A stretch of DNA of 64,000 nucleotides. It comes from Trypanosoma brucei (lineage: Eukaryota). The translations under genes and the position numbers were made by a program. Below are positions 462 through 60,334 of this stretch, piece by piece; position 1 is the stretch's first letter; each line of letters starts with the position of its first letter. Below the pieces are notes generated by a model that worked only from the letters and a program-made list of their open reading frames with translations, searched no databases and was not told the origin of the DNA. The stretch lies in NCBI GenBank assembly GCA_000002445.1, contig AL929603.2, forward strand, positions 896,001-960,000, read 5' to 3'.

Positions 462-464
<3 letters not shown>

Positions 465-2983: not shown

Positions 2984-3240
2984 ATTTATTTTCATTTTTA
3001 TTCCTCTTTCACCTGGTTCTCCCAACTTGTTGTTCGCGTATGTATTTTTCTCGTTTTCTTTTTTTCCTCTTCTTCTTTTCTTTTCCTTTTGTGAATGTTG
3101 AGTTGAGTTGAGTTTAGTTTAGTTTCTGTTTTACTTTTTGTTTTTTTTTCCTTTTTTATTTAGTTGCTGGCTCCCTGTCTTTGAATCTCTGCGGGGAGCC
3201 TCTGTTGTGGTATATTCTCGTTTCTTTTTTTTTTTTTGTG
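2984..3240 (+). promoter_or_regulatory. Polypyrimidine-rich tract upstream of first gene (candidate trans-splice/polyadenylation signal region)
   Basis: Long C/T-rich run with interspersed AG dinucleotides ending ~400 nt before ATG 3638. Trypanosomatid mRNAs are trans-spliced downstream of such tracts. Confidence 0.4.
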
Positions 3241-3637
3241 TTTGTGTGACTTTGCGGCAGTCCATCAACGAAACTTATAAAAGTGAAAAGGAAACAAAAA
3301 CAAAAGGAAAGGAACGTTGAAAAAAAAACCCCTAAGAGATATTAACTATCAACATTTACGAAGAAAGGATAGGGGGAATAGATATAACGGGAAGCCGCAT
3401 TGATACAAAAATATACACATACACACAAGGGAATAAATATATACTCATAAATATAGAAGGTAAGAGAGGGAAAGAAAAATAAAAAAAGAAAAAAAGAAAA
3501 GGAAAAGGAATAAGGGAATAAGGGAATAAGAGAACAGAAACCAGAGACACATACACACACGAAGAAGGACAAGTAGTCCATTGTCGAGCTGTTTTCTTTT
3601 TTTTGTCTGTTTACCGTAACGAAGTGAGCATTTTTCA

Positions 3638-7223: not shown

Positions 7224-9026
7224 ATGGATACTCTCTTTTATTTTCCTGTTGGATGCCTTATTGGCGCTGTTTGTGTAGTTATATGTTACCTCTTTGGCAT
7301 GGAGTGTCCGGTATTTGTTGGTTCCACCGTCAAGGGCGCCGCATGCTTTATGGTGCAGAAGCTTACTAACTGTGATGTTTCCCTTTTACGCAGCAGCACA
7401 TTATTCATACCATCTGATAGTTCCTCTTTTTCTTTTGTCCCGAATCATGGGATTGGATCAGCTGCCAGGAGGTCGCTGTATGGCAGGAATGATAATGAGA
7501 TTAAAAATCCACTGATGACACAACGATGCCAGAGTCCTCACTCGGCGGGATCGACTTTATCACCGGAACGGTTAACAGTCATGTGCCAACTGGCCATGTG
7601 CCATGAAGATGAGGAGGATTATGTTGTGAGGAACTGCCACCTGGTGATGTCGGAATCGTTTATGATGTTATACGAAGTGCTTTCTTCACATAGCGTTGGA
7701 AACCATGAACGTGCAATTACAAATGAACGTTTTATTGGCCGCATACAGATGGACCGAGTGGTATCCCGGGCGATTTATGTGAGCTCGGCGGATAAGCGCT
7801 CCCTTCGCACCGGTGGGTTGCATGGGCACATGTTGATGCTCACAACTCATTCGGGCGATGACGGTCTCTTCTTTGAGGCTGAAGATGGTGAATGTGGTAT
7901 AGAGGAGGAGGATCCATCATTGGGTGTGACGGTGCGTGGCAGTAAATGGTGGGATGCAAGTAGTAAAACCCTTCATGATGTAATGTTAGGGAGGAGGAGG
8001 AGCAGTGGGTTGGTAGGTGTCACTAAGAGGGATGAGTCAGTTGAAAAACTCAGCAACTCGGCTAGTCTTCGTGCATCTGTCGGCGGACATGGGGAGAATT
8101 CATGCAGTGACCACGTTGGTGGGGGGAGTCCATGGGATGAAGATAATGGTAGTGAAGAGCCCGACCCCGATGCCAAAGGAACATCACAGATGTATATATT
8201 TTTGAAGTTTCGCTACGCGCGGGAGCAAGAGCGGGTGCACAATCTCCTTGTGGGAATGCACGAAGCGGTGCATTGGCACGAGTACTTGCAGACAATCCCA
8301 ACACCTAATGCCTTCAATGTCTTTCTGTCACGCGTGATATTTCAAAGTCTGCGTAGTACGGCGCTCGCCAACTTTATTCGTGAGAAGATCCAAAAATCAT
8401 TGGACATCATGGCCGTCAAAAAGTTCCCGAGAGGGCTTGAAGGTCGGATTCTTCTCGATGACGTTGCCCTAAACTCTGAGGTTCCTGTCATTAGCAATGT
8501 AACGGATCCACTTATTTTGGCGAAGGGTGAAATGATGTTCGACCTCGACATATTGTACCGTGGTGGTGCCTCGCTTCTGTTTCGATCGTGTTTGACGTAT
8601 CGTGGTGTTCGCATTCCCCACGTTACACTTTATGTGAAACTCGTGCGGGCAGAGGCGCGGCTGCGAGTGAGCGTTGGTCCGCCACCCAGCAAAGTGTTTT
8701 GGGTTGGCTGCCTCGCTCCACCGGATGTGCAATTGGAGGTGAGTCAAGGCATGGAAAGCGGTCATGGCTTGCTTCATCGCCTCCTCACCTCACTGCCTAA
8801 TTTGAGCGGTATCGTAACGAAACTTCTCAAATTGTACCTCTTGCATGAGATGATGTTGCCACTGATGGATGACTTTCCACTGCCTAATGTTGAGGACACA
8901 CCTCCCGTTACACCGCGAGATGATGGCAAGAAGACGTGGAATGTTCCGTTTTGTAGAAGGGAGGCGATGAGGTACATTCAGGAGCATATGAACATACACT
9001 GGTTTCAGGAGGCGGGTGATCATTAG
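7224..9026 (+). CDS. SMP/TULIP-domain (synaptotagmin-like mitochondrial lipid-binding) protein, N-terminal TM anchor; paralogue 1
   Basis: The ORF-track start at 7221 is GTG and the first ATG is at 7224. The hydrophobic N-terminus (LFYFPVGCLIGAVCVVICYLF) looks like a TM anchor. The C-terminal ~170 aa (ILLDDVALNSEVPVISNVTDP...MFDLDILYRGGASLLFRS...VKLVRAEARLRVSVGPPPSKVFWVGCLAPP...LPNLSGIVTKLLKLYLLHEMMLPLMDDFPLP) follows the block order I recall for the extended-synaptotagmin/TEX2 SMP domain (DLG..P.I..V.V; I.LDL.ISF.G; RV.LEP; DIPGL...VLP..I.VPL). This is clearly paralogous to the next gene. Confidence 0.6.
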   Translation: MDTLFYFPVGCLIGAVCVVICYLFGMECPVFVGSTVKGAACFMVQKLTNCDVSLLRSSTLFIPSDSSSFSFVPNHGIGSAARRSLYGRNDNEIKNPLMTQRCQSPHSAGSTLSPERLTVMCQLAMCHEDEEDYVVRNCHLVMSESFMMLYEVLSSHSVGNHERAITNERFIGRIQMDRVVSRAIYVSSADKRSLRTGGLHGHMLMLTTHSGDDGLFFEAEDGECGIEEEDPSLGVTVRGSKWWDASSKTLHDVMLGRRRSSGLVGVTKRDESVEKLSNSASLRASVGGHGENSCSDHVGGGSPWDEDNGSEEPDPDAKGTSQMYIFLKFRYAREQERVHNLLVGMHEAVHWHEYLQTIPTPNAFNVFLSRVIFQSLRSTALANFIREKIQKSLDIMAVKKFPRGLEGRILLDDVALNSEVPVISNVTDPLILAKGEMMFDLDILYRGGASLLFRSCLTYRGVRIPHVTLYVKLVRAEARLRVSVGPPPSKVFWVGCLAPPDVQLEVSQGMESGHGLLHRLLTSLPNLSGIVTKLLKLYLLHEMMLPLMDDFPLPNVEDTPPVTPRDDGKKTWNVPFCRREAMRYIQEHMNIHWFQEAGDH

Positions 9027-9052
9027 GTTTTGGGTTTGCCCATTTTTGTCCA

Positions 9053-9064
9053 TGTGTGTGTGTG

Positions 9065-9096
<32 letters not shown>
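9053..9096. repeat. Compound (GT)n(TA)n microsatellite
   Basis: gtgtgtgtgtgtgtgtgcatatatatatatatatatatatata, visible directly. Confidence 0.9.
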
Positions 9097-9098
<2 letters not shown>

Positions 9099-9701
9099 TA
9101 TAGTGAAGGTCCCTGGACCACCCACTAAACAGTTTCTTTGACGCGATCTTCTGGCATCCTGCCAAAAATTTCCTGCTTCATCAACGACACTTATCGCTCG
9201 TACGTTGTTTGAGTTCTATTCAACTTGGGGGAGGATTTGAGATGTTTTTCTTTCTTCTTTTGATTGCTTCTGTTTATTGCTTTTCTTTTTCTTCTTTCTT
9301 TTTTTTAAAAACCCTTTTCGCGTGGTGTTGGAGCTTGTGAGCACGCGACACGCTGGAAATGGGGGGAGGGAGATGGGCGGCTCCTCAGGACATTTCGTCG
9401 CAAAAAAAAAAAAGAGGTGTCTGTAGTTATACGCTATACTAACGGACGTGCTTGACTAAAGTTAAGGAAGATAAGTTGTTGCGAGAGCATTATCTTATCT
9501 CTGTATATGCATACAAATATTTGCATATACAGATGTAAGAATATTCCTACGTGCAGATTGGTTGTTGATTACACTTGCGTCAGAAAACAACAACAACAAG
9601 CAAACATATCTATTGGAGCTTGTTGTACCTGATTTCTGCTTGTCATTATGTTGACCTCAATTTTCTCCTTTTTACAGTTCGCTTCCTTTCGTCTTTTATA
9701 T

Positions 9702-9736
<35 letters not shown>

Positions 9737-10009
9737 CATGTTATTTATTTAATCTTTTTCATCTTTTTTTTTCTCATCTTCTTCTCTCGCATTTCTCATC
9801 GTGAAACACCACGTAATTCCCTGCGCCGTAGCCCTCAGAGCCAAAGTGTAGAAGGAGAGGAGAGACATTTAAACGAAAGGGGTGGTGAAGGCGGAGGCCT
9901 CCACCAATCCGCTTCGAGTGCCCGTGCGGACGCTCACACACGCTGTAACGTTGAGCCAATAGCTTTTGTTGCGTTGCAGGAGGAAAGACGGGCGTGTCAG
10001 GTTTTGTGT

Positions 10010-11602
10010 ATGTTGAGTCTGCTGCTTCTACTGCTATGTGGTGTTGCCTGCGGGGCAGTGGCAACTGTCTTTAGCGTGTGGTTCGCTTTCATTAGGTTCG
10101 ATAACTTCCTTCAGCGCGTGTTGGAGCGTAATGAGGAAGCTGCTATCCGAGCATTGGAGGATACGCGTACGAGTGTGACGGTGCCGGCATCCAAAGTGGA
10201 GGGTATTTGTGAAATGGCATGTTTTGATGGTGATGTCGTATGGAAGACGATTCCTGTGCGGGCTGTGCTCTTTGGTTCTACCGTGTCCGTGTATCGATTA
10301 GTTACGCGGGAGATGTCAGATGACCTTAACAACACCGTTGTGTGTGGAGATCAGTTGATTGGGAAGATAAATACAGATTCTGTCATCAGTTCTGTGGTAA
10401 AGATATCTAAATATCATCGACATGTGAATATAGCGGAACGGTGTTCGCCAGTGTCGGGCCAATGTCTTCTGCTTCGTCATAAACCAGGCCTTCCTTTGTT
10501 TCTTGTAGATCCAGTCGTGCAACTGAAGCAAAGACTTCGTCGGAAGCAGAGGGAGCAAACCAGCAGGGGGACAGTTCATCATTCACCGCTTCAAGACGAT
10601 GACGAGGATTTCATCAACGCGAAGGACACGCATAGCGACCAAAGGAACAACAGCCAGAGTAATAACTTGTCCAGTTCTGCGCTTGACTCTTCATCTTCTG
10701 TGGATGGTAGCGGGGAAGACTATAGTAAGTGGACCGCGGTGCTGTTTAAGATGTGTACGAGAAGGGAGTTGGAGCGCTGGTACAATTTGCTCCAGGGTAA
10801 TTCTCAATCAGAGGAGTGGCGCAATTTCATCAAACGGTTAACACGCGCCGATGCTCTCAGTCTTGTAGTTGCACGTCTCTACTTTGCTAACACGGACACG
10901 AGTAGTCTACAAGATTTGCTCACCCGAAAGATCAGACGGAAGCTACGAAGGGTGTCGAGGAGGCTTCCTAATCACATGAAAGGGGAGATTATACTGGACC
11001 GCTTGGAGCTTGGTGAAGAGATTCCGCTTCTTGACTCGGTAAGCGATCCAGTTGTTTCACCCAATGGTGAGATAGAATTTGACTTTTATCTCCTGTATCG
11101 CGGCGGCCTCCACTTCAGCCTACGGTTCAGCATAACGTATCGCGGCATGCGTGTGCCAGACATTATTTTTAATGTGAAGGTGCTTCAGCTGTCGAACCGT
11201 GTGCGGCTCAATGTCGGTCCCCCTCCATCAGCAAAGATTTGGCTGAGCAGCCCACACACGCCGCATCTGCAGCTGGAGTTTACGCAGGAAGTTGCCACAA
11301 ATGATGGTTTCCTACACACCTTACTGAAGCTCCTTCCAGATATGAGTGCCATCATGACGACCATCGTGAAGGTGAAATTATTTGAGGATATGCTGCTTCC
11401 ATCCATGGATGACTTCCCATTGCCGTGCCTAAGTTACTCTCCATCCTCTTCGGAGGCGAGTGATGATGGTGAAGAGGATGTGGATGCAAAAGTGGAGTAC
11501 AGTTTTGCATCACCAGCAGAAGAGGAGTCGTCACCACCGCCACTCCGCAGCTTTGACGCCGTGAGCATGGGGTCATTGATCGAACGTCGACCACATAGGT
11601 GA
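10010..11602 (+). CDS. SMP/TULIP-domain protein, N-terminal TM anchor; paralogue 2
   Basis: The ORF extends upstream to 9575, but that part reads through a (TA)n/low-complexity intergenic tract (YIYIYIYVYIY). The first ATG after the polypyrimidine tract at ~9735-9800 is 10010 (MLSLLLLLLCGVACGAVATVF, a TM-like N-terminus). The C-terminus (IILDRLELGEEIPLLDSVSDP...FDFYLLYRGGLHFSLRFS...VKVLQLSNRVRLNVGPPPSAKIWLSS...LPDMSAIMTTIVKVKLFEDMLLPSMDDFPLP) is collinear with the previous gene at roughly 40-45% identity. Confidence 0.6.
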   Translation: MLSLLLLLLCGVACGAVATVFSVWFAFIRFDNFLQRVLERNEEAAIRALEDTRTSVTVPASKVEGICEMACFDGDVVWKTIPVRAVLFGSTVSVYRLVTREMSDDLNNTVVCGDQLIGKINTDSVISSVVKISKYHRHVNIAERCSPVSGQCLLLRHKPGLPLFLVDPVVQLKQRLRRKQREQTSRGTVHHSPLQDDDEDFINAKDTHSDQRNNSQSNNLSSSALDSSSSVDGSGEDYSKWTAVLFKMCTRRELERWYNLLQGNSQSEEWRNFIKRLTRADALSLVVARLYFANTDTSSLQDLLTRKIRRKLRRVSRRLPNHMKGEIILDRLELGEEIPLLDSVSDPVVSPNGEIEFDFYLLYRGGLHFSLRFSITYRGMRVPDIIFNVKVLQLSNRVRLNVGPPPSAKIWLSSPHTPHLQLEFTQEVATNDGFLHTLLKLLPDMSAIMTTIVKVKLFEDMLLPSMDDFPLPCLSYSPSSSEASDDGEEDVDAKVEYSFASPAEEESSPPPLRSFDAVSMGSLIERRPHR

Positions 11603-12099: not shown

Positions 12100-12966
12100 A
12101 TGCCCATCACTGGACCGTCACATTCGCTTCGGTTTGGACCCGATGATACCGGCAGGGAGGGATGCTCTCAAGGGCCATTATTGGGCACATCAACCGGGCA
12201 GTCCCGTCTCGATGGGAGCAGCGCATCACTGAATGCCATTGCTCGATTTCGTTCTTTGGATAGATCTTTTCCCGTTGCGCAAGCTCTACGACAGAGGGTG
12301 AGGGGACCAGAACCTGCCGCCCCAACATCCGCAATTCAGCGCGCCGCCCCTCTCAGTAATGAAAATTCCGGCATTAACCGATCGGGAATCAACAACACCC
12401 GCGGCTCGTCGGTGGTTTCACCATATGGCATAGGCCCAGCTGCTCTTGTCTACCCAACTCATTCACAAACATCAGCGGTGGAATCCATGTCCCGGTCATC
12501 ATCGTCATCGTCGTCATCGTCATTGCCTCCTCGGCAACTAAATGAGTTGTGGCAGATGGTACGAGATCTCAGGGCAGAAAATGCTGTACTGCAGCAGCGA
12601 GTTGGTATATTGATGGAGGGCGGTGATGAGAAATTTGAGGAGACACTGCAGGGCATTCCACTGCATGGGACTGAGCATGAAAAGAATACCACGGGAGTAT
12701 CTTCAAATAACACCACCACTACCACCAGTGCCGCACGTCCTAGCAGTGAGAAAGCTGGTGCAGTTTCCGATACTACACTTCTCAGCGAAGGAAGTGGAGG
12801 TAAGAATGGACATATGACACCATATCTATTTGCAGAGAGGGAAGCGATGCTAAAGCGAATACGGCGGTTGGAAGCGGCACTAAAGTTGGAGGCGATGGAA
12901 CGTGATGCGCTGGAACTGCGGTTGAGAGCTCAGGAACGTGTACTTGCCCGGTTTGTGCAACAATGA
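12100..12966 (+). CDS. Hypothetical protein, 288 aa, poly-Ser stretch and C-terminal coiled coil
   Basis: ATG confirmed at 12100, and it is the first in-frame ATG after an upstream polypyrimidine tract (11780-11880); a short out-of-frame uORF ATG lies at 11882. Heptad-like regions are LNELWQMVRDLRAENAVLQQRV and RIRRLEAALKLEAMERDALELRLRAQE. Confidence 0.5.
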   Translation: MPITGPSHSLRFGPDDTGREGCSQGPLLGTSTGQSRLDGSSASLNAIARFRSLDRSFPVAQALRQRVRGPEPAAPTSAIQRAAPLSNENSGINRSGINNTRGSSVVSPYGIGPAALVYPTHSQTSAVESMSRSSSSSSSSSLPPRQLNELWQMVRDLRAENAVLQQRVGILMEGGDEKFEETLQGIPLHGTEHEKNTTGVSSNNTTTTTSAARPSSEKAGAVSDTTLLSEGSGGKNGHMTPYLFAEREAMLKRIRRLEAALKLEAMERDALELRLRAQERVLARFVQQ

Positions 12967-13534
12967 GGTCTCATGGTCTTATCATACTGAAGCTGAGTCG
13001 GCGGATATCTGATCATGATTTGTAGGTGTACGAGGGGAAAAATGGAGAAGGAGAGGGGGAAGGGGGAGGGAGGGAGGGGAAAGTATAAAAGACGTGTCCA
13101 TGTGGAAAAAAAAAAAGGAAGGGGCTACTATGTTTTTATTCAAAAGCAGATTTAATAAGCGAATGCACATCTTGTTTTGCACTGTTTTTTTTTTTCGCCC
13201 GCTACTGGTTGTTCCTGGTGGTCTATATATCGAAACATCCGAGGTTCCACGTGGTATGTACGGGGGTACCATTCGCTTTCTCTGCCCACCCCCCACTCCC
13301 CTTGCCCCCGTTCCCTTATCGTGACTTTGCTACTGTTACCGTCAGTGCTATTATTATTTTTATTATTGTTACTTGTTGTTTCTTTCCACTTCACTAACTG
13401 CTAAAAAGGTGTGAGAAGGAGCGTGCCAGGGAACAGTCATCAGGTGCCACCACTTCTCTGGCTCCTATTTTCCCCCCCTCCGCGTTCCTCCGTCTATTTT
13501 ACGGAGTCATATTAGTTGAAAAGGGTTCAGAAAA

Positions 13535-15871: not shown

Positions 15872-16189
15872 GGGATATATTTTAGTGTCAAATCATCGCG
15901 GTTGAGAAAAAAAAAAGAAAAGGTCTCAGCGAGCAAGAACACGCATGCCGGAAAAAAAAAGAATTGGTCATTCTTACAGCCGGGTATACCCATGTGTATG
16001 TGTGTGTGGTGTTCTTCACCTCCAAAATAGTTTGGAGCTGGGGTGTCCATCTCATTTTTGTCGCAATGGTGTATACTTTCGGTTTTCACATCTGTCGCAA
16101 ATGTTATATTACGTTGCACCACGTACTTTCTTCTCACCCTCACTTTTTATGTCTTATGCGCATCAGATTATAGAAAGAGGACAAATAAA

Positions 16190-16265
16190 ACAAAGCGAAC
16201 TCTCTTATACTCCTTATTATTTACCTAACTTGGTTTTTATAGCTCTGTTTGTACCGTACCTTGCC
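16190..16265 (+). promoter_or_regulatory. Polypyrimidine tract / candidate splice-acceptor region upstream of ABC-like gene
   Basis: ctcttatactccttattatttacctaacttggtttttatagctctgtttgtaccgtacc then AG. Confidence 0.4.
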
Positions 16266-16323
16266 GGAGTGATTGTGGAGGGGAGTATTCGCTGTTCGAC
16301 AAACACCGAAACAGCCACGACGA

Positions 16324-19161
16324 ATGACGACAACTCAAGGTGAAGTAATCTCCACCACTTTTTTCAGCAGCAAGGCTCTACTGAAATCCCTGCAAGATGT
16401 GAGCCGCAGCCTCCACATAAGTGGTAATCAATTTCTGCCGCCCAACACCGTTTTGCTTTGTGCCGTCGGTTTAGGCTTTTTGGTTGATGGCGTTTATACT
16501 GCAACCGTGTGGTTTCGAAACCGACGGGCCCTTAATGTGGAACGTGCCGTCAACCATCATAATGGGCCGGTGAAGTTTGTGGTGACCGATGAGTTAGAGG
16601 ACCGCGACGAGGAAGCGAAAGCGTGTTTAGTGCAGCAGTACAGTGACGAGTTATGCAAAGCAATTCTTGGGGCGCCGCGGACGTCACCAGGCTCATGGGC
16701 CAGATCTCCCCCTGCAGACGCCGTCGCCGAGTACGAGACACTTCCTGAGCCGATTCGACTGCTGTGGGAGGACCGTGTGAGGTACACTTTGGACGCGCGT
16801 GAGGTCGTGGGTCTTCTGCGCAGGCGGCTGGAGCCTCACTTGGCCGGGTCGAGGTACGGGCCCAGTGCCGCTCTGATGGCATTATTGTGGCGTTTGCAGC
16901 TCCTGCGCACCGTTCACGAGTCTATAGTGATCGCCGGAGACGTGGGACGGTGCAATGCCGAGTTGACCGAACTTGGAAAGCACACAGGAGCTCTTTATCG
17001 AGAGTTTATTTCTACGTTACACGCACCGGTGCGGGTCCCCTTCGACTCTTGCTGGGAGTGTTTGTCCGCCGAAGACGACCGGTTGCGTGGGCAGGCAAGG
17101 GCGTTACAGCTGCGCAACCTTTGGAGTCTCACCAGATATGTGTTTGCAGGGGGGCTCGATAAGTTATGCACTTACGGTATGGTGGGACTGCTCACTGCTT
17201 TTGCTGCCCGTAGTGCGAGTGCGATTTGTACAATCAGGGTGGACGTGGAGCAACTTCTTCCTAATCTCTTTGGCACCGCTGCTTCCATCAATACTGGGGG
17301 AACCACCGGGGACGGTGCCATCGTCTCATGGACTGCCATGCACATCGTCGTAGCGCGTCTTCTCGTTTCCGAGTGGATGTTGCACATGTTGCGTCTGGGA
17401 ATCACACGGGTAACACAGGACTACACCCACGCCTCTGCTGCATGGCGCAGGGACACTGTGAAGCACCGACTATACGATGCACTCACGCGGACACCCTTAA
17501 GTTACTTCGACAAAACGGAACGTTACGCTGTTGAGGAGATTGTGTACTACGTTAATGACCTTGAGGGGGTTGATGTTTTTGTGCATGACTTCTTTACGCG
17601 GCTGGCACAGTCTGGCATTTCATTGTGTGTGGCATTAAGGGTGTTAGACATGCGGAGTGCGGTGACCGTTATGGGAGCGGTTGCTGGAGCAAGTCTTTTA
17701 AATGCTAGCCTGAGTTTTCTCAAGAAGACCTACTGCGCCCTCTCATATTGTAATGGGATTGGGTTTGAGGCGGTTGACAGCCCGTCGGATGCAGAGGAGG
17801 AGGAGAATCGGAAAGATACAACAGACCACCTGATGTTCTGTGGGATGGACATTATCGAGCACATCCCCGAGCTGCGCCCGTACGGCGCTGACACCAAACT
17901 GATGGAATGGTGGAACAACTACACCGCTCACTACCGACGGCGTTCCTGTGGCCTGCGTCGTGTTTTCCAATTAACCTATAACTCCCGCTACCTTTGGGCG
18001 ATTGACGCTCTTAAACCGGTCGCACGGTGGCTTCTTCCCGCTATTGTCGCTGCGAATGCTGCGGGCACGTGTCAAATACAAGTCTTTCTTCTTGAGGCAA
18101 TACGGGCCTCGCAGGATGTATTGGAGCGTGTGGTGGACGTTCAGCGTGTTGTGGACGTAGTGGGATATAATGCATACAAGGCTGGGGTGCTTGAACGTAT
18201 CCTCGACTCCAAGAATTGGGAGGATGGAGACACCGCGGAGAGGATCTGTGAGCATACGAATAAGGGCAATATCAGTGATACTACTGCACTTACTTGTGAT
18301 ATGAATGGCGGTACGTATAAGAAAAACAAGGAAGATGGAGAGTTGAGGCTTAAAGGAAACGACGTGGAGGTGCTGGCTGTTCGCGCGAACGGTTTGCAGT
18401 TTCGTTATCCAACAGCACCAACTGTTGATGCCTTTCTGAAGCCCGCTTCGTTTCAATTTGAGTTGAGGAATAGGACGACAGGTCTTGGGCGGCTTGTGTG
18501 CATCACGGGAGTTAGTGGCTGCGGCAAAACAACACTCCTGCGCCTTCTATTGGGGCTTTACGCGCCGGAGAACCCCAACACTCTCCTTCTTGAGTTTCGG
18601 TTGCGACGGCATCATGTGTCGGAATCCAACGGAGGGGGAACGGGTAATAGCGGTAATAAAGAGCAGTGGGCTCCAGTTGAGCTTATACCGCGAGCTCAGC
18701 TTCGGTCTACTTTTTTCAGCTACGTGCCACAGGCCCCAACTATATTTCCTGGCGCGACCATAGCCCAGAATGTCTCACTTCGGAACCGCGTTTCAATTAC
18801 GGATACGTTGGTCCTTGAGCGGGTGCGTGTCTGCACGGAGGCTGCGGGTTGCGGTCATTTCATTAAGCGCTTGCCAAATGGTATCATGACGCCACTGTGC
18901 GTGAATGTTGGTTGGGCGACGCCCGATGCCGTGCGACTGAGTTGTGGTCAGGGGCAGAGACTAATGTTAGCTCGTGCTCTATTCCACTGTTCCAGTGTAC
19001 TTTTGTTGGATGAACCCACAGCAGGGTTAGACAGTGAGACGAAGAAAGCAGTCATGTCACAGTGGCGTGAGTTGCTGTCTTCTGGACTCGTGGGTGGTAT
19101 CATATGCGTGTCGCATGACGCCGATGTGTTGCAAATGGCGGATGAGACCGTAACATTGTGA
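16324..19161 (+). CDS. ABC-type ATPase-like protein: hydrophobic N-terminal region plus single C-terminal nucleotide-binding domain
   Basis: The ORF-track start 16273 is a TTG codon; the first in-frame ATG is 16324 (MTTTQGEV). Walker A is GVSGCGKTT (~18505-18540), the ABC signature is LSCGQGQR (~18938-18961, a variant of LSGGQ), Walker B is VLLLDEPTAGLD (~18995-19030) and the H-loop is ICVSHD. Several hydrophobic segments N-terminal to the NBD suggest a half-transporter-like layout, but the N-terminal region (~700 aa) is longer than a typical transmembrane domain. Confidence 0.7.
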   Translation: MTTTQGEVISTTFFSSKALLKSLQDVSRSLHISGNQFLPPNTVLLCAVGLGFLVDGVYTATVWFRNRRALNVERAVNHHNGPVKFVVTDELEDRDEEAKACLVQQYSDELCKAILGAPRTSPGSWARSPPADAVAEYETLPEPIRLLWEDRVRYTLDAREVVGLLRRRLEPHLAGSRYGPSAALMALLWRLQLLRTVHESIVIAGDVGRCNAELTELGKHTGALYREFISTLHAPVRVPFDSCWECLSAEDDRLRGQARALQLRNLWSLTRYVFAGGLDKLCTYGMVGLLTAFAARSASAICTIRVDVEQLLPNLFGTAASINTGGTTGDGAIVSWTAMHIVVARLLVSEWMLHMLRLGITRVTQDYTHASAAWRRDTVKHRLYDALTRTPLSYFDKTERYAVEEIVYYVNDLEGVDVFVHDFFTRLAQSGISLCVALRVLDMRSAVTVMGAVAGASLLNASLSFLKKTYCALSYCNGIGFEAVDSPSDAEEEENRKDTTDHLMFCGMDIIEHIPELRPYGADTKLMEWWNNYTAHYRRRSCGLRRVFQLTYNSRYLWAIDALKPVARWLLPAIVAANAAGTCQIQVFLLEAIRASQDVLERVVDVQRVVDVVGYNAYKAGVLERILDSKNWEDGDTAERICEHTNKGNISDTTALTCDMNGGTYKKNKEDGELRLKGNDVEVLAVRANGLQFRYPTAPTVDAFLKPASFQFELRNRTTGLGRLVCITGVSGCGKTTLLRLLLGLYAPENPNTLLLEFRLRRHHVSESNGGGTGNSGNKEQWAPVELIPRAQLRSTFFSYVPQAPTIFPGATIAQNVSLRNRVSITDTLVLERVRVCTEAAGCGHFIKRLPNGIMTPLCVNVGWATPDAVRLSCGQGQRLMLARALFHCSSVLLLDEPTAGLDSETKKAVMSQWRELLSSGLVGGIICVSHDADVLQMADETVTL

Positions 19162-20330: not shown

Positions 20331-20552
20331 GGTATAAAATGTACACATGTGCATATATGCACAAACAATGACAATACGAAAACAAATGATGTAGTGGGAC
20401 TGGTACCCACATCATCCTCCCCTCGAACTTTTTCAAAAAACCAGAGGTTGAAACGGTTGTGTGGGTTCAGCGCGCGTGAGTGGGAAGGTAAACTGTAAGT
20501 AATTTTTCAAATCGAGGAGGCGGAAGTGAAGGAGGTGGGGAGGGAAGTGTGC

Positions 20553-23500
20553 ATGTACACGCTGTACCCCCGCTTTGATGCTCAACCCTCCGATCCAGCG
20601 CTTTTGGGGGAGGCTGCAGGAAATGAGTTACTGAAGGAAGTGACAGATCTGACGTCGAAGGGACACCGCATGGACGTTGGTGAATATATTCCCTTTAGGC
20701 GTTCACTGCGGTTCAACACACCTCAAAGCCGCCGCCCGGCCCGGCGCAGACGAGGCCTGCAGGACACGGCACCCGAGTACGAATCTGAGGGAAGCAGTGG
20801 CTTCTGTAGTGATGTATTGGCTACTTTTGCCAGCCAGTTGCGCTGCCTCTTCCCCTGCTGTGGTCCCAGGAGGGTGGAGGATGAGAAGCTTTGGTTTGGT
20901 TTCGCCATGACACGAGGAGTAAGAAATATATACTTGCGTGTGGTGCGGCAGCACCCAATCGTTTCCATGATTGTCTGGTCCGTCCTCTTCTTGTGCGAGA
21001 CAACGATGGTGGCCATTTATTTGTGGCAAGTGTCAGGTGTTGCAGAGGGCGCCACGTGGAATTCTTTCACTGAGGAGGAATTAGGCTTGTGCTTCTGCAT
21101 AAGCAGTGCCCTGTCCATTTTACTACTATCCCAACTGATCTTTGCGTACTCCTTTACGCCTTTTACCATCGTTGTGGTGCTCGTTACAACTATCTATCAG
21201 ATTGTCCTCCTTTTTATGGCCTTGGTTTTCGGCCTGACTTGGGCGAGTCGGATGTACGTTCCGATGTTTCTGCGGTGTTGGCCCATGCGGCAGTATTTTC
21301 TCTTTCTGCTGGACTCCGTGGCCATGTTGTCATCCAGTAGTGATAGGCTCGATGTTGTTCGTTTGGCAGCACCATCGCTTTCGTTGTTCTTAACCATGGT
21401 ATTCACAACTGCGTGCATCTTTCAAATTCAGCAAATTTTTTCCGGCACGATGATTGGCACAATAGATTCGCTGTACTTTGTCATGGCGACCGTATCAACG
21501 ACTGGGTTCGGTGACGTTCTTCCGCAGGGCAACATTGGCCGTATGTTGACGATTGGAATTATCTTTGTCTTTCTTGCGAAGATGCCTTCGTGGATTGTGG
21601 TTGTGGTAGGGATGGTGAAGATGCTGCGTGACTTTCCGAAGTACGGCGGTCCACCGCATCACTTCATCGTGTATGGTCACGTGAGCCAGGAGGACGCTGT
21701 GTCCATACTTGACGAGGTCTTCAAACTATACCCAACGAGATCTGTGTGCTTTTGCAATGCAAGTTTTCCGCGGGATGTTCTATCATTGGGTGGACACCCA
21801 AATTATAGGATGCGCAGTACATTTATGGTAGTGAAGGTACTCAACAAGGCTTCGCTGCATCGCATGCGGGTGAGTGAGGCGGATGCGGTTATCATTTCCC
21901 CAACTAGCGATGGGACGGCGAAGGCGCGGGACGATGACGTGTTTTTGTCCTCCGTTACGTTCCAGCGGCATGCACCTTTTGTTCAGCAGTACCTGCAACT
22001 CCGATTCGGTACCCACATCAAACTGCTGGAGGAGCGCGAAACGATGGTGGATCAGAATATGAGGAGCATTATGGCGAGTGCTCTTATTCTTCCCGGTATT
22101 GTTCCATTTTTGGTGAACCTTGTTCGTACTGCATCGTCAGGTGGAAGCTCTCCGGCTTCTCTGTGGTCTGAGGAGGGAATGGATAACTGGAAGGACCTGT
22201 ACGAATACAGTCGGCGCGCTACATTTCGCACATTTACGGTTCCACCTTATTTTGAGCGGCGGCCTCTGCGGGACGCAGTATACCTGTTGAAGACCTTTAA
22301 TGTATTAGTTGTTGGCGTGGAGGAAGGGAGGAATAGGATGATGATACTCGACCTTGATTATAAACTTGCGTTGAGTGACACTATCCTTGTACTACATGAA
22401 AGTGGTAGCGACAGTGTGGACCTGGCGCTAAGAGCGCTTGACCCAACAGAGGGCTCCCGTGGGAGCATGACGGGGTGTGATAGGAGTGAGCAATGGGAGG
22501 CGCGGATGGCTTCGCCCGCGGCTGATGCATCCGCACAAAGCGGCTCCCGTGGTGACGTGCCGGACGCTGAGGTGGAGGAGTTGGGCGCTGTTGGAATCGA
22601 CAGCGCGAGCCTCATTTACCCGTTCAACCCAAGCTTTGAGGTGCCTACTGGTAGTAATGAGGAGGTGCCATGTCTCGGTACAGAGTGTGACAATTCGCCT
22701 GGAAAGACTCCACCAGTGGCGATGCAGGGACATAAAGGGAAAGCAAATGTGCCATTGCCGAACAGTGTAGCTCTCTCCAAAGGTACCATCACCAGCGTGT
22801 TGGATATGCAGGTCGAAAGACTGCGGAGGAGGCTGTTGGGAGAGGACTTCGTGGTTAAATGTTTCGGTGATGTTTCACTCTCACGCCTTCCTCTAGGCGG
22901 TTCGTTGGCGGTGCTGACGCATTTGCTGAACTGGCGCCAGGCGGTTTGCACAAGGTCTGAGCCTGTGGAATCTTCGGTTGAACGAATAGAGCGGCAGATC
23001 AATGACATACTGAGACATGTAAGTAACGAGTACCAGTGCGGGAGGAGCGGGAAAGCCCCTGGGGAAAACTTTCTTTTTATTGACCATGTGTCCTCGTTCA
23101 AACAACCATTGCTAGAGTCCATGTATGACCATTACCTTAATGACCATGCTTCACGGTTTGAACTCGTACAAATGATGCGTTGCATCCGGGGCATTCACTC
23201 CCGCTCCCGCGTTACACTTCTCAGTTGGCAGAGTCTGAGCGATTCTTTCCTCCGGCAGTGGGACTCTTCATTTGAGTTTCCCCTACGACATATTCGGGGC
23301 TCGAGTACAATGGAGTCTCACTTAAACTATGCCATCAAGGAAAGTGGAGGGGCGGCTAACCTGCGTGGTATTCTCATATACTGCTCACAGCTTAGTCACT
23401 GGGACTTTAAGGACGTCCCGCTTGTTGCTGTGGAGAACAACATACGCGCTATCCTTGATTGCCATGCCACTTCGGAGAAGCAGCAACAGGGGGTGGGCGG

Positions 23501-24056
23501 TGGGTCGTCTCGCGGTGCAGAGGTGGAGCAGCAGGTTATGGTGGAGCTAAAATCCTTTAAGTCCTGCATTTCAGTTACACCTCACCACGCGGACACGGAA
23601 TGGCGACAGCGTGGTGAGGTCCATTTCCAGTACTCCCTGGCGTTCATGATGGGTCGTTGCTTCTCTGCCAACATGCTGCAAACAATTTTTATCCACGCTC
23701 ACCGGAATCGTTGTATTATGAAATTCCTTAACAACGTGTTGTGCCTGCATCGGCAGGGAAGTGTGTTTGATACAGGGGGGTGGAACAGCGGCGACAAGTC
23801 GGACACCACTCTTTTTAAGGTATGTGGGAACCAGCTTTTGCATTTTCAAACGTTCGGCGATTTGTTTGTGTTCCTCCTGAAACACCGTTCGTGGGTGGCC
23901 ATCGGTGTTTTCCGCCGATTCCCGACGTCTGAGGGGCTTCCAGGCGTTCCCCGCTATTTCATTACGAACCCCCCAATGAAAATGCCGTTAAGGGTTGATG
24001 ATGTGGTGTACGCCCTTTCTGGAGTCACGGGAGCACATAACAGAATGGGTTGCTAA
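20553..24056 (+). CDS. TbK1: Potassium channel subunit, Slo/MthK-like with RCK domains (Ca2+-activated-type K+ channel)
   Basis: The track start 20526 is GTG; the first ATG is 20553. Several TM helices are followed by a pore loop with the canonical K+ selectivity filter TVSTTGFGDV (~21496-21516). An S6-like helix (LTIGIIFVFLAKMPSWIVVVVGMV) comes next, then an RCK/Rossmann start HHFIVYGHVSQEDAVSILDEV, which resembles the HIVVCGH motif of BK/MthK channels, and a long cytoplasmic tail. The symbol TbK1 is assigned from memory: my recollection is that one of the two T. brucei K+ channel subunits lies on chr 1 a short distance upstream of the CFB1 array. This is unverified. Confidence 0.8.
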   Translation: MYTLYPRFDAQPSDPALLGEAAGNELLKEVTDLTSKGHRMDVGEYIPFRRSLRFNTPQSRRPARRRRGLQDTAPEYESEGSSGFCSDVLATFASQLRCLFPCCGPRRVEDEKLWFGFAMTRGVRNIYLRVVRQHPIVSMIVWSVLFLCETTMVAIYLWQVSGVAEGATWNSFTEEELGLCFCISSALSILLLSQLIFAYSFTPFTIVVVLVTTIYQIVLLFMALVFGLTWASRMYVPMFLRCWPMRQYFLFLLDSVAMLSSSSDRLDVVRLAAPSLSLFLTMVFTTACIFQIQQIFSGTMIGTIDSLYFVMATVSTTGFGDVLPQGNIGRMLTIGIIFVFLAKMPSWIVVVVGMVKMLRDFPKYGGPPHHFIVYGHVSQEDAVSILDEVFKLYPTRSVCFCNASFPRDVLSLGGHPNYRMRSTFMVVKVLNKASLHRMRVSEADAVIISPTSDGTAKARDDDVFLSSVTFQRHAPFVQQYLQLRFGTHIKLLEERETMVDQNMRSIMASALILPGIVPFLVNLVRTASSGGSSPASLWSEEGMDNWKDLYEYSRRATFRTFTVPPYFERRPLRDAVYLLKTFNVLVVGVEEGRNRMMILDLDYKLALSDTILVLHESGSDSVDLALRALDPTEGSRGSMTGCDRSEQWEARMASPAADASAQSGSRGDVPDAEVEELGAVGIDSASLIYPFNPSFEVPTGSNEEVPCLGTECDNSPGKTPPVAMQGHKGKANVPLPNSVALSKGTITSVLDMQVERLRRRLLGEDFVVKCFGDVSLSRLPLGGSLAVLTHLLNWRQAVCTRSEPVESSVERIERQINDILRHVSNEYQCGRSGKAPGENFLFIDHVSSFKQPLLESMYDHYLNDHASRFELVQMMRCIRGIHSRSRVTLLSWQSLSDSFLRQWDSSFEFPLRHIRGSSTMESHLNYAIKESGGAANLRGILIYCSQLSHWDFKDVPLVAVENNIRAILDCHATSEKQQQGVGGGSSRGAEVEQQVMVELKSFKSCISVTPHHADTEWRQRGEVHFQYSLAFMMGRCFSANMLQTIFIHAHRNRCIMKFLNNVLCLHRQGSVFDTGGWNSGDKSDTTLFKVCGNQLLHFQTFGDLFVFLLKHRSWVAIGVFRRFPTSEGLPGVPRYFITNPPMKMPLRVDDVVYALSGVTGAHNRMGC

Positions 24057-57424: not shown

Positions 57425-58903
57425 CGGTCCAACTGAGTGGTGAGCACTCCATCGAGTCTGTGTGGTGATGCTGTGGACGGCGTGTCCCCACTGGTTGGAC
57501 TGTAGTTTCTTCCCTCCCTTTTTTTATATTACGTTATGTTTTTTTTTTTCATTTTCCACTCCCTTTCTTTGCCGTTTGCACTTTGCTCGCTTGCATTAAG
57601 GATGTCTTGGGGGTCTCTGGACCGAGTGCTGTAAGGAGGAGGGGGCAATCCTTCCCTATACAAATTACCACATATACTCATTTACACTTATACACATATA
57701 CGCTTTCTATCAATCCCCACTATTTATATATACCGATTCAATTATATGACCATGGAAAAAACATATATACAACTTCCTCCGTATGTAACAGCTTCCCCCG
57801 GTACGGCACATAGACCGTCACGGGCCTCCCATTGACATAACTTGTGCAAGACTCCTGTTCCCTGCTAATTGCAGGGAAGAGACGGCTAATTGGAACTACA
57901 CCTTCCTCACCCTCATTGTTTTCATTGTTTTCTTTTGTATTTCTATTAACCTAAGATAATTTCACTCGCTGTACTTTCTTCCCTCCCTACATCTATATGT
58001 TCCCTTATATAACTTTTATACACATGTTTTTTCCTCTCTTTTTCATCCTATACAAACATATAAGCATATCTATATACACGTATATACATACATATATATG
58101 TTTGTTTTTATATGCCGTGACTTTGTTTCTTTTTCCCCCTTTTTATCTCTTTTTATCCCTTTCTTTCTTTTTTTACTTTTTCATTTTGAATGCCCTTATG
58201 TAAGTAAACGCTTCTTACTAATAGAGGATTGTCCTTGGCAATTTCTCTCTTATCATTTTATTTTCCTCTCCCTTGTTCTTTTCGTTTTATATCATTTTTC
58301 ATTTCGTTTCATTTACTATTTTATTTTACTTTTGTTTCATTTACTATTTTATTTTACTTTTGTTTCTATTTTTGTTTCCGCTGCTCACACACACACCCTG
58401 CTCTTCCAGTTGCATGACATCATTACACACTAATTGCAGTGGTGCTCCATTTGCTGTTTGCTGAAACGTTTGATTTATTTCTTGTCCCTTTCCTCAAGCA
58501 TCTCTTCGTTTAGGCAACACACCATCTTTATGACAAGTGTTTATTGTAATTGTGGTGTTGTGTGATGCAGCGGTAGATTGGACGTGTGTGTACACTTGCA
58601 GCAGTGCCTCGCACAAATCGTATCTCCTCCCGGGACTTGTGCATGCAAGTTCCCCAATTTTTAACCCGTGGCCTTGTCACCCGTTACGCTGTGTCTGCTT
58701 TTCGTTTGTTTTGTCTCTTTCTCCCAAATTCCTTTTTGCTTCTACCTTCTGTTTATTGATGCGTGTGATAGTGTTTTCCGCTATCGGAACCAGAAGACCA
58801 TAAGCAAGGTAACATCTGAGGCCAACCCAATTGCCATCATTTTCTTTGTCGTGAATTGTGAAGCAAACCTCTACCAAGCGTTATTTGAATAGCGGTGTAC
58901 ACG

Positions 58904-60334
58904 ATGTCCTTGGAGGAGGGAAGCAGTGAAATGCGGTTGAGCGGAGCAGCGTTCTTGAAGGGCGCTGTTGATGATTTCCATGCGGGTAAATCTTCTGCTT
59001 TGTCATCTGGTAGCAGTCCTGCGCTTACTGTGTCTGTTTTTAGTACGCCGGCGTTCGGTTGTTCGACATTTGGTAACTCATCGCCGGTTTGTGGCGGCCA
59101 TGAAGCCAACTACGAAGCTGTTGCGCTCCGTGATGCCCCCTTGAGCAGTCGAGGTATCGTTGCTTGGGATAGGATGAAGTGTGAGAGCTCACTTTTTGTG
59201 AAACTTCAGGCGTCTTCAGGGTTGTCCGGAACCGACTCAGAGGACATAGCTAACCCGTTAGTGGATCTTTCGGATGCTTGCGGAACAGATGCCCTTTCCG
59301 AGTTGCGTGAGGAACATCAACATATTTCTTCTGTTGCCTCTGAAAAGCCTTTGACCCTTCACGATGTGCCGGAATCCGTCCTGTATGGTGCCATTCCATA
59401 CCTTTCCCTTCCAGACGTCATTGCCTTATCACGGACATGTAAGAAGTTTCACAAACTGGTGCAGGGATACTTTGCAGTGAATGAGCATGGCGTGATGAGC
59501 ATCCCCGCCTTTGACACCCGCAGCTTCATGCAGTACCGTCCAGAGAGGAAACCTCCGGTAACGAAGGTCACAGCCGCGGGACCCGCCCCTAAAATTCCTG
59601 GTGTGAAACCCATCCGTCTGTTTTTTGGCCAGCAACGACGGGACGTTTATCCCTCAGCTCTACGGCGTCTGCTGCGCTTCATTGCACCTGACCTTGTTAT
59701 CACTCACATGGAGGCTCACGTGAATGAGGCAACTGGTCGGGGCAAAGGCTGCGCATGGGTTATTGTTCCTTCAGTGTTGGAGGCGAAACGACTGTTACGA
59801 CTCAGTGGGCGTATCTTCCTTGACATAAATTCTAATGGTGAGGAGGTATACCTGTTCGCTCCCCCTAACTGCCGAGAGTGGTTAAGTGAGTACGCCGACT
59901 ACGTTGTCTCCTCAACAACTCGTGCAAGCCATCTTCCGTACTTACCAATGGTTGTTGGAGTACCGAAGAAGGAGTGTATATATGTACGTGAGCTTTTGGC
60001 ACCTTATATTTATGATCCCAATCGCGGTGACTGTCCGCCATATGCCGACGCGGTTTCGGAGTTTAAGGGCTTATTGGAGGATCATGCGTTACTTCCAGTA
60101 TCTTCCGCCGTATCGGGCATTATTCCTCCTTTTGCTTCTGTTCCTCCTATGGTGCAGACTTGCATGTTTTCTTCCTCTTTTGATCGTAGAGAATACTTTG
60201 AAGCCCCCAACGTTTATACCAGCACGGTGTGGACTGGCTTCAGTCGGTACCGCCATGATCCGTATGTGTTTGATCCACTACGGGAGCCAACGAACATGTT
60301 ACCGCTGCATGAAGTGGATTACGCTGAGATGTAG
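58904..60334 (+). CDS. CFB2: Divergent terminal array member: F-box/RRM-like protein with C-terminal RYRHDPY motif (CFB2-like)
   Basis: The track start 58895 is GTG; the ATG is 58904 (MSLEEGSSEMRL). The N-terminal ~110 aa and the C-terminal ~150 aa are diverged from CFB1. The central F-box and RRM-like core (EKPLTLHDVPESVLYG...QYRPERKPPVTK; PIRLFFGQQRRD; LRLSGRIFLDINSNGEEVYLFAPPNCREWL) is nucleotide-identical to CFB1 over long tracts. HDPY at 60254-60265 (cgc cat gat ccg tat) sits inside RYRHDPYVFDPL. The spacer upstream of it is of the short array class, and the sequence downstream of the stop is unique. Symbol assigned from memory, unverified. Confidence 0.75.
   Translation: MSLEEGSSEMRLSGAAFLKGAVDDFHAGKSSALSSGSSPALTVSVFSTPAFGCSTFGNSSPVCGGHEANYEAVALRDAPLSSRGIVAWDRMKCESSLFVKLQASSGLSGTDSEDIANPLVDLSDACGTDALSELREEHQHISSVASEKPLTLHDVPESVLYGAIPYLSLPDVIALSRTCKKFHKLVQGYFAVNEHGVMSIPAFDTRSFMQYRPERKPPVTKVTAAGPAPKIPGVKPIRLFFGQQRRDVYPSALRRLLRFIAPDLVITHMEAHVNEATGRGKGCAWVIVPSVLEAKRLLRLSGRIFLDINSNGEEVYLFAPPNCREWLSEYADYVVSSTTRASHLPYLPMVVGVPKKECIYVRELLAPYIYDPNRGDCPPYADAVSEFKGLLEDHALLPVSSAVSGIIPPFASVPPMVQTCMFSSSFDRREYFEAPNVYTSTVWTGFSRYRHDPYVFDPLREPTNMLPLHEVDYAEM

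What the first reader, a model, noticed from the sequence alone, without database searches (positions are those of the whole stretch)
7224..11602. Tandem pair of diverged paralogues encoding TM-anchored SMP/TULIP-like lipid-transfer proteins
Two adjacent genes share a collinear C-terminal ~170-aa domain (LNVGPPPS, YRGG, LP[ND][LM]S[GA]I, MDDFPLP) and hydrophobic N-termini. The domain's block order matches my recollection of the E-Syt/TEX2/Nvj2 SMP domain found at membrane contact sites. A duplicated pair at ~40% identity points to sub-functionalisation, for example different contact sites. SMP proteins are poorly characterised in kinetoplastids.
Basis: partly seen in the sequence, partly recalled or inferred. 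Interest (0 to 1): 0.6.

Follow-up and report, generated by a model that had tools for sequence, protein, structure and literature searches.

The report
Tandem Nvj2/TEX2-like SMP lipid-transfer genes
Two neighbouring Trypanosoma brucei genes encode membrane-anchored proteins with a PH-like domain followed by an SMP lipid-transfer domain, the layout of yeast Nvj2 and human TEX2; databases already tag them as SMP proteins, but nobody has studied them.

Summary
Gene 1 (7224..9026, 600 aa) and gene 2 (true ATG 10010..11602, 530 aa) are real paralogues. They align over 467 aa (E 2e-52, 27% identity) and share 34.6% identity over the C-terminal 237 columns, with every quoted motif present.

The pair is ancient. 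The same tandem order occurs in T. conorhini and Leishmania mexicana, and the two orthologue groups separate in 200/200 bootstraps.

Both proteins are identical to T. brucei TREU927 entries that UniRef already names "SMP-LTD domain-containing protein", and other strains carry the label "DUF2404". The domain call is therefore not new. The PH domain, the subfamily assignment and the conserved tandem pairing are modest additions. Function, presumably ER-anchored lipid transfer at contact sites, is inferred and untested.

The parts
7224..9026 (+). Gene 1 (600 aa). Identical to T. brucei brucei TREU927 CAJ16643.1 / UniRef100_Q4GYE1, named 'SMP-LTD domain-containing protein'. This is the faster-evolving paralogue.
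   Evidence: ORF. Exact identity to P0173. Orthologues.
7224..7367 (+). Gene 1 N-terminal hydrophobic anchor, residues 1-48. The model shows helices 2-27 and 29-48. The Kyte-Doolittle >=1.6 windows together span residues 1-36.
   Evidence: Hydropathy. AF2 secondary structure.
7572..7847 (+). Gene 1 PH-like beta-sandwich, first six strands (residues 117-208).
   Evidence: AF2 model, block pLDDT mostly ~80-86. Foldseek matches to PH domains of Trio, TBC1D23 and Dbs at E 0.02-0.05.
7884..8180 (+). Gene 1 insert that splits the PH-like domain, residues 221-319. Low confidence, probably disordered, and poorly conserved.
   Evidence: pLDDT <50. Gappy and variable in alignment A1.
8190..8294 (+). Gene 1 last PH strand and C-terminal helix, residues 323-357. 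It contains ERVHNLL, in which the usual PH-helix Trp is replaced by Val.
   Evidence: This segment falls inside the significant hhalign alignment to the PH helix consensus 'ekEdWY..L'.
8310..8885 (+). Gene 1 SMP/TULIP domain, residues 363-554. It carries YRGG, VGPPPS, LPNLSGI and MDDFPLP.
   Evidence: Foldseek: Mmm1 5yk7 E 3e-5, Mdm12, TMEM24. hhalign E 6.5e-37 to the wider PH+SMP family. Motif positions.
9027..10009 (+). Intergenic region. It holds (TG)n/(TA)n microsatellites and long polypyrimidine tracts upstream of the gene 2 ATG. The mechanical TTG-started ORF from 9575 is not coding here.
   Evidence: Sequence printed. The annotated 530-aa protein starts at 10010.
10010..11602 (+). Gene 2 (530 aa). 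Identical to T. brucei brucei TREU927 CAJ16644.1 / UniRef100_Q4GYE0, named 'SMP-LTD domain-containing protein'. T. equiperdum and another T. brucei strain label it 'DUF2404'. This is the slower-evolving paralogue.
10010..10099 (+). Gene 2 N-terminal hydrophobic anchor, residues 1-30. The model continues it as one long helix, 2-54.
10193..10480 (+). Gene 2 PH-fold beta-sandwich, residues 62-157.
10511..10714 (+). Gene 2 insert within the PH-like domain: helix 168-187 followed by a low-confidence stretch 188-235.
10736..10795 (+). Gene 2 last PH strand and C-terminal helix, residues 243-262. It contains ERWYNLL, with the Trp retained.
10847..11425 (+). Gene 2 SMP/TULIP domain, residues 280-472. 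It carries YRGG, VGPPPS, LPDMSAI and MDDFPLP.

Best explanation

Shown by prediction or sequence analysis:
- Each protein has an N-terminal hydrophobic membrane anchor.
- Each has a PH-fold domain split by a disordered insert.
- Each has a C-terminal SMP (TULIP-fold) domain.

Inferred from Nvj2, TEX2 and E-Syt:
- The anchor holds the protein in the ER with the rest in the cytosol.
- The PH-like domain binds the membrane or a protein of a partner organelle, so the protein sits at an ER contact site.
- The SMP domain, probably as a dimer, shields lipid acyl chains in its hydrophobic groove and moves glycerolipids or ceramide between the two membranes.

Both copies have been kept side by side since before Trypanosoma and Leishmania diverged, and they are only about 35% identical. 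They are therefore most likely non-redundant, differing in partner organelle, lipid or regulation.
For: Paralogy: E 2e-52 over 467 aa, and a Smith-Waterman score about 80 SD above shuffles.

Sequence chain:
- The kinetoplastid profile finds 679 proteins at E<=1e-3.
- Of 59 distant hits, 46 carry Pfam MMM1/PF10296, 12 PH, 10 PH_SMPa ('PH domain associated with SMP domain') and 5 PH_11.
- hhalign of the kinetoplastid profile against these hits gives probability 99.9%, E 6.5e-37 over 226 columns. The alignment covers the PH C-helix and the whole SMP domain, with shared motifs W.N..l.R.f, Y.GG, PPPS..W and LP.MDD.P.
- The profile of the distant set hits solved Mmm1 (E 6.7e-12), Mdm12 (2.4e-6) and PH domains such as Bem3 (1.2e-6).

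Database labels: 'SMP-LTD domain-containing protein', 'DUF2404', and a precomputed PF26547:PDZD8_N tag.

Antiquity of the pair: the same gene order occurs in T. conorhini. In L. mexicana the upstream 943-aa gene is 51% identical to g1 against 41% to g2. The g1 and g2 groups split in 200/200 NJ bootstraps. In L. infantum, adjacent genes LINF_120015800/900 are both labelled DUF2404 (PMC9323391).

[quoted passage not shown] Its SMP domain is needed for ceramide transport and its PH domain for Golgi binding (PMC5223604). TEX2 has the same layout (PMC11320393).
Against: Direct searches are negative. Pfam finds nothing for either window protein, and orthologues fall below the MMM1 cut-off. The kinetoplastid profile hits no solved SMP sequence directly.

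The N-terminal part of the PH-like domain shows no significant sequence similarity to the PH region of the wider family (hhalign E 0.085). The PH call therefore rests on predicted structure from only 19 sequences.

In gene 1 of T. brucei and T. congolense, the Trp of the PH C-terminal helix, which is present in every other aligned sequence, is Val. That PH domain may be degenerate.

I could not compare directly with named Nvj2 or TEX2 sequences.

Nothing here tests localisation, topology, dimerisation, a hydrophobic cavity, lipid binding or lipid transfer.
Confidence: 0.75

Rival explanations
1. They are divergent ERMES-type SMP proteins (Mmm1- or Mdm12-like) that link the ER to the mitochondrion, not Nvj2/TEX2-type proteins.
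For: The best solved structural matches are Mmm1 and Mdm12. The only weak direct Pfam hits are to the family named MMM1.
Against: No TEX2 or Nvj2 structure appeared among the solved-structure matches, so Mmm1 and Mdm12 may simply be the nearest solved SMP domains. Both proteins have a PH-fold domain between the anchor and the SMP domain. The reviewed descriptions attach that feature to Nvj2/TEX2 and not to Mmm1, Mdm12 or Mdm34 (PMC11320393). Many of their nearest non-kinetoplastid relatives carry PH or PH_SMPa domains. From my own knowledge, the Pfam MMM1 model (formerly DUF2404) also covers Nvj2/TEX2.
Confidence: 0.05
2. One or both proteins act mainly as tethers or regulators rather than lipid carriers. 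In particular, gene 1 could be a degenerate partner that only heterodimerises with gene 2.
For: Gene 1 evolves faster. Its SMP region is 57.8% identical to the T. cruzi orthologue, against 68.8% for gene 2. It has lost the PH-helix Trp in African trypanosomes and carries a longer disordered insert. Nvj2 itself tethers membranes (PMC5223604).
Against: The SMP core motifs (YRGG, GPPPS, LP.MDDFP) are invariant or nearly invariant in both clades. That argues for a conserved activity in both. The g1 clade has been retained from Trypanosoma to Leishmania.
Confidence: 0.12
3. The hydrophobic N-terminus is a cleaved signal peptide, and the proteins are lumenal or secreted TULIPs like BPI, LBP or SPLUNC.
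For: Secreted TULIPs (SPLUNC1, LBP, Der p 7) appear among the weaker fold matches. The N-termini are hydrophobic from residue 1.
Against: The hydrophobic stretch is 30-36 residues long, which fits a membrane anchor better than a signal-peptide core. The best matches are cytosolic SMP domains. A PH-fold domain is typical of the cytosolic face. Sequence homology is to the intracellular PH+SMP family.
Confidence: 0.03

Closest known systems
Nvj2 (yeast) / TEX2 = HT008 (human) / AT1G73200 (Arabidopsis)
   Same: Same domain order: N-terminal membrane anchor, PH domain, then a C-terminal SMP domain (PMC5223604; PMC11320393). The kinetoplastid profile aligns at E 6.5e-37 with a eukaryote-wide family. 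Many of its members carry Pfam PH or PH_SMPa domains together with the MMM1/DUF2404 model.
   Different: Sequences are very diverged, so no curated model detects the window proteins directly. The PH-like domain is split by a 50-100 residue disordered insert before its last strand. There is no long disordered N-terminal region before the anchor, unlike TEX2 as described in PMC11320393. Trypanosomatids have two copies in a conserved tandem. I did not test direct orthology to named Nvj2 or TEX2.
Mmm1 / Mdm12 (ERMES SMP subunits)
   Different: No PH domain is described for them, and they work as a hetero-oligomer with Mdm34 and Mdm10 (PMC11320393). Identity over the structurally aligned residues is only 9-17%.
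TbE-Syt (Tb927.10.13740), the one SMP protein studied in T. brucei
   Same: An ER-anchored SMP protein in the same organism, proposed to transfer lipids at contact sites (PMC8093936).
   Different: It is a different gene and has two C2 domains after the SMP domain. The window proteins have no C2 hit and only short disordered tails.
PDZD8
   Same: N-terminal anchor plus an SMP domain. The protein database carries a precomputed PF26547 'PDZD8_N' tag on all the homologues returned by the two protein searches.
   Different: No PDZ, C1 or coiled-coil region was detected. A PH-fold domain precedes the SMP domain. The PF26547 hit could not be reproduced with the local Pfam copy.

Membership tests
SMP / TULIP superfamily | TULIP fold: a long helix packed against a strongly curved antiparallel beta-sheet, forming a tube. 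| tested here: met
SMP / TULIP superfamily | Significant direct match to a curated SMP sequence model (Pfam MMM1/PF10296, SMP_LBD/PF17047 or similar). | tested here: not met
   No Pfam hit at E<=10 for either window protein. Orthologues score E 0.07-0.26 against MMM1, below the cut-off. The kinetoplastid profile hits no solved SMP sequence.
SMP / TULIP superfamily | Sequence homology to SMP domains by profile methods, with one intermediate step allowed. | tested here: met
   Kinetoplastid profile against the distant set: hhalign probability 99.9%, E 6.5e-37. 46 of 59 members of that set carry Pfam MMM1. That set's profile hits the Mmm1 chain at E 6.7e-12 and Mdm12 at 2.4e-6.
SMP / TULIP superfamily | A hydrophobic cavity that binds lipid, and lipid transfer between membranes. 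| not testable with these tools
Nvj2 / TEX2 subfamily | N-terminal transmembrane anchor. | tested here: met
   The only strongly hydrophobic segment lies at residues 1-36 (g1) and 1-30 (g2). Both are modelled as helices with pLDDT 77-88. Topology was not tested.
Nvj2 / TEX2 subfamily | PH domain between the anchor and the SMP domain. | tested here: met
Nvj2 / TEX2 subfamily | Nearest relatives outside the lineage are PH+SMP proteins. | tested here: met
   Among the 59 distant hits, Pfam finds PH in 12, PH_SMPa in 10 and PH_11 in 5, alongside MMM1 in 46. In the one hit whose domain positions were printed (P0070), the PH domain is N-terminal to the SMP domain. Named examples are dictyostelid 'PH domain-containing protein' and S. 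octosporus SOCG_02512.
Nvj2 / TEX2 subfamily | Reciprocal best match or phylogenetic grouping with named Nvj2, TEX2 or AT1G73200. | not tested
   Those sequences could not be fetched. The protein searches return few names, and the AlphaFold database fold library was unavailable.
E-Syt / tricalbin | C2 domains C-terminal to the SMP domain. | tested here: not met
   No C2 hit at E<=10. Only 46-58 mostly low-confidence residues follow the SMP domain.
Mmm1 (ERMES) | Anchor followed directly by the SMP domain, with no PH domain. | tested here: not met
   A PH-fold domain plus insert, about 200-250 residues, separates the anchor from the SMP domain.
PDZD8 | PDZ and C1 domains after the SMP domain. 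| tested here: not met
   No PDZ or C1 hit. The only link is a precomputed PDZD8_N tag.

The most novel reading that the evidence does not exclude
The two co-transcribed paralogues could form an obligate heterodimeric SMP tube, as Mmm1 and Mdm12 do. This would give trypanosomatids, generally reported to lack ERMES (my own knowledge), a lineage-specific ER contact-site lipid conduit. The partner could be the single mitochondrion or a parasite-specific organelle such as the acidocalcisome or glycosome. The two different PH-like domains would give the complex two-sided or switchable targeting.
Probability: 0.08. Interest if true: 0.65.

Novelty: new member of a known kind. Interest (0 to 1): 0.3.

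Why it matters
Non-vesicular lipid traffic in trypanosomatids is barely mapped. In the searched literature the only SMP protein I found described is TbE-Syt, and a 2023 review states that Leishmania donovani has no SMP proteins at all (PMC10341546).

These two genes, with their Leishmania orthologues, contradict that statement for the genus (shown here in L. mexicana and L. infantum). They provide two concrete Nvj2/TEX2-like candidates for ER-Golgi or ER-endolysosome lipid transfer, possibly of ceramide, in parasites whose sphingolipid metabolism is a drug-target area.

The scientific surprise is limited. The family is widespread in eukaryotes, and databases already tag these exact proteins as SMP-LTD/DUF2404.

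Tried and rejected
- The default protein comparison BLASTP showed only fragments at E>1. Repeating it without composition-based statistics, and with Smith-Waterman plus shuffles, recovered the full alignment. I rejected the first result as an artefact.
- Direct Pfam scans of the window proteins and their orthologues found nothing significant. The precomputed PF26547 tag could not be reproduced locally.
- The kinetoplastid profile against PDB sequences gave only chance hits such as CheR and a peroxiredoxin.
- The third homologous-protein search, run with the alignment as query, returned only the five gene 1 orthologues. It added nothing.
- The afdb50 fold library was not available, so named AlphaFold models of TEX2 and Nvj2 could not be matched.
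- hhalign of the first six PH strands against the wider family was not significant (E 0.085).
- A first Biopython bootstrap timed out and was replaced by a numpy NJ bootstrap.
- Literature searches for DUF2404, SMP-LTD or TEX2 together with Trypanosoma found no paper on these genes.
- I considered E-Syt, Mmm1/ERMES, PDZD8 and secreted-TULIP identities and rejected each. The reasons are in the membership tests and the rival explanations.


Full report
**What is in the sequence**

The region holds two complete + strand ORFs. Gene 1 runs 7224..9026 (600 aa). Gene 2 ends at 11602. The ORF lister starts gene 2 at a TTG at 9575, but that stretch is low-complexity 5' UTR with (TA)n repeats and polypyrimidine tracts. 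The first ATG is at 10010 and gives 530 aa.

Both translations are identical, residue for residue, to T. brucei brucei TREU927 proteins CAJ16643.1 (UniRef100_Q4GYE1) and CAJ16644.1 (UniRef100_Q4GYE0). These sit on a 1,064,672-bp record. That size fits chromosome 1, which is my own knowledge.

All large ORFs in the window are on the + strand, as expected for a polycistronic unit.

Yes. Each protein has exactly one strongly hydrophobic segment, at the extreme N-terminus.

The default BLASTP comparison showed only fragments. Without composition-based statistics, the two proteins align collinearly over 467 aa (27% identity, 178 bits, E 2e-52). A Smith-Waterman score of 464 compares with 39.5 +/- 5.2 for shuffled sequence. 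Over 237 aligned columns of the C-terminal region, identity is 34.6%.

**What the proteins are: sequence evidence**

Direct searches are weak:
- Pfam finds nothing for either protein at E<=10.
- Orthologues reach only E 0.07-0.26 against MMM1/PF10296.
- A 19-sequence kinetoplastid profile (A1) hits no solved SMP sequence.

One further step is decisive:
- The same profile, searched without a word index against 1.84 billion representatives, finds 679 proteins at E<=1e-3 and 224 at E<=1e-10.
- Of 59 distant hits (E 1e-28 to 1e-13), 46 carry Pfam MMM1, 12 PH, 10 PH_SMPa ('PH domain associated with SMP domain') and 5 PH_11.
- Profile-profile alignment of the kinetoplastid set against these 59 gives probability 99.9% and E 6.5e-37 over 226 columns. 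It spans the last PH strand and helix and the whole SMP domain.
- The profile of the 59 hits the solved Mmm1 chain at E 6.7e-12, Mdm12 at 2.4e-6, and PH domains (Bem3, PLEKHA5/6 and others) down to 1.2e-6.

Public labels agree. UniRef names both proteins 'SMP-LTD domain-containing protein'. [quoted passage not shown] The database carries a precomputed PF26547:PDZD8_N tag.

**What the proteins are: fold evidence**

The AlphaFold2 models have moderate overall confidence (mean pLDDT 59.3 and 61.8) because of long disordered inserts. The structured blocks score 70-89. Both models show the same elements in the same order:
- an N-terminal helix or helices;
- six beta strands;
- an insert;
- a seventh strand plus helix;
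- two helices, long curved strands and C-terminal helices.

Foldseek against the PDB returns Mmm1 (E 3e-5 for g1, 6e-6 for g2), Mdm12 and the TMEM24 SMP domain. Other TULIPs follow: Der p 7/Der f 7, SPLUNC1/BPIFA1, LBP and, more weakly, JHBP.

**Which SMP subfamily**

The layout is anchor, PH, SMP. The literature describes that layout for Nvj2 and TEX2 (PMC5223604; PMC11320393).

The alternatives fit less well:
- No C2 domains follow the SMP domain, so these are not E-Syts. TbE-Syt is a different gene, Tb927.10.13740 (PMC8093936).
- There is no PDZ or C1 domain, so they are not PDZD8.
- A PH-fold domain is present, which argues against Mmm1.

Three caveats apply. The first six PH strands show no significant sequence similarity to the wider family (E 0.085). 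In gene 1 of T. brucei and T. congolense, the Trp of the PH C-helix is Val (ERVHNLL against ERWYNLL). I could not compare directly with named Nvj2 or TEX2 sequences, because the afdb50 library was unavailable.

**Age of the pair**

T. conorhini has the same local order: a 671-aa gene, the g1 orthologue, the g2 orthologue, two further genes, an ABC transporter and a BK-type channel.

In L. mexicana, the gene just upstream of the g2 orthologue encodes 943 aa and carried no precomputed Pfam tag. Its SMP region is 51% identical to g1 and 41% identical to g2, so it is the g1 orthologue.

A neighbour-joining analysis of the SMP region separates the g1 set (Trypanosoma plus Leishmania) from the g2 set (Trypanosoma, Leishmania, Novymonas, Angomonas) in 200/200 bootstraps.

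An L. infantum expression paper lists the adjacent genes LINF_120015800/900, both labelled DUF2404 (PMC9323391).

The duplication therefore predates the Trypanosoma/Leishmania split, and both copies have stayed adjacent. Gene 1 evolves faster: its SMP region is 57.8% identical to T. cruzi, against 68.8% for gene 2.

**How it most likely works**

Shown by prediction or sequence: the anchor, the PH fold, the SMP fold, the family relationship and the ancient tandem pair.

Inferred from Nvj2, TEX2 and E-Syt:
- ER anchoring with the bulk of the protein in the cytosol;
- targeting to a partner organelle through the PH-like domain;
- dimerisation of the SMP domain;
- carriage of glycerolipid or ceramide across a contact site.

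In yeast, Nvj2's SMP domain is required for non-vesicular ceramide transport and its PH domain for Golgi binding (PMC5223604). TEX2 acts at ER-late endosome/lysosome contacts (PMC11320393). By analogy, the two trypanosome paralogues probably serve different contacts or lipids. I put about 0.75 on this overall picture. The SMP identity itself is above 0.9 and the specific function is much lower.

**Novelty and interest**

I found no paper on these genes. One review says L. donovani lacks SMP proteins (PMC10341546), which the L. mexicana and L. infantum orthologues found here contradict for the genus.

The additions here are the PH-fold domain, the Nvj2/TEX2-type assignment, and the finding that the tandem pair is conserved across trypanosomatids. 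These proteins are members of a known kind and useful as candidates, but not surprising. Interest 0.3.

Noticed in passing
window 43385-60334 (+): A tandem array of five 530-aa ORFs with a period of about 3.1 kb (43385, 46513, 49576, 52703, 55832), followed by a 479-aa ORF (58895..60334). The first copy and the 479-aa ORF have no Pfam hit at E<=1e-3, and the first copy has no PDB sequence hit. The translation contains an F-box-like stretch (LHDVPESVLYGAIPYLSLPDVIALSRTCKKFHKLV). From my own knowledge this resembles the T. brucei chromosome 1 CFB1 (cyclin F-box) array followed by CFB2. I did not verify this.
   Followed up: partly
window 7224-11599 (tool behaviour): BLASTP with composition-based statistics dropped a 467-aa, E 2e-52 alignment between the two paralogues and reported only fragments at E>1. 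Turning the adjustment off recovered the alignment. A negative result from the default pairwise tool would have been misleading here.
   Followed up: yes
window 8229-8249 (gene 1 residues 336-342): In gene 1 of T. brucei and T. congolense, the Trp of the PH C-terminal helix is Val (ERVHNLL / ERVQNLL). The T. cruzi and T. conorhini gene 1 orthologues, one unnamed gene 1 orthologue (P0003) and every gene 2 orthologue keep Trp. This may indicate relaxed or changed PH function in these two African trypanosomes.
   Followed up: partly
L001 3066-5897 (L. mexicana FR799565.1): The Leishmania gene 1 orthologue (943 aa) carries no precomputed Pfam tag and was missed by the word-indexed homology search. 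Its SMP region is nevertheless 51% identical to gene 1. The review PMC10341546 states that L. donovani lacks SMP-domain proteins; the L. mexicana and L. infantum orthologues of both genes contradict this for the genus.
   Followed up: yes
homologues P0001-P0019; L001, L002: All homologues returned by the two protein searches carry a precomputed PF26547 (PDZD8_N) tag, unmarked where it is graded (that is, E<=1e-5). The local Pfam-A hmmscan never lists this family, even at E<=10. The local copy may lack the model or differ in version.
   Followed up: partly
window 9040-9100 and 9690-9760: There are (TG)n/(TA)n microsatellites just after the gene 1 stop and again about 250-300 bp upstream of the gene 2 ATG, plus long polypyrimidine tracts around 9250-9310 and 9780-9810. 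The second (TA)n run lies inside the spurious TTG-started ORF extension.
   Followed up: no
window 12100-24056 (+): The downstream neighbours are two ORFs without Pfam hits (288 aa and 778 aa), an ABC_tran protein (16273..19161) and a Slowpoke/BK-type K+ channel (20526..24056). The same order occurs in T. conorhini, and partly in L. mexicana.
   Followed up: partly
window 1-4000, 34000-36000, 60000-64000: These stretches are markedly AT-rich (GC 0.27-0.35, against about 0.5 in coding regions). They were not examined.
   Followed up: no
NJ tree of SMP regions: A third, deeper group of related sequences lies outside the g1 and g2 clades. It includes one from the parabodonid Cryptobia/Trypanoplasma borreli (P0056). 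Whether it represents the pre-duplication state in early-branching kinetoplastids or a third paralogue was not resolved.
   Followed up: partly
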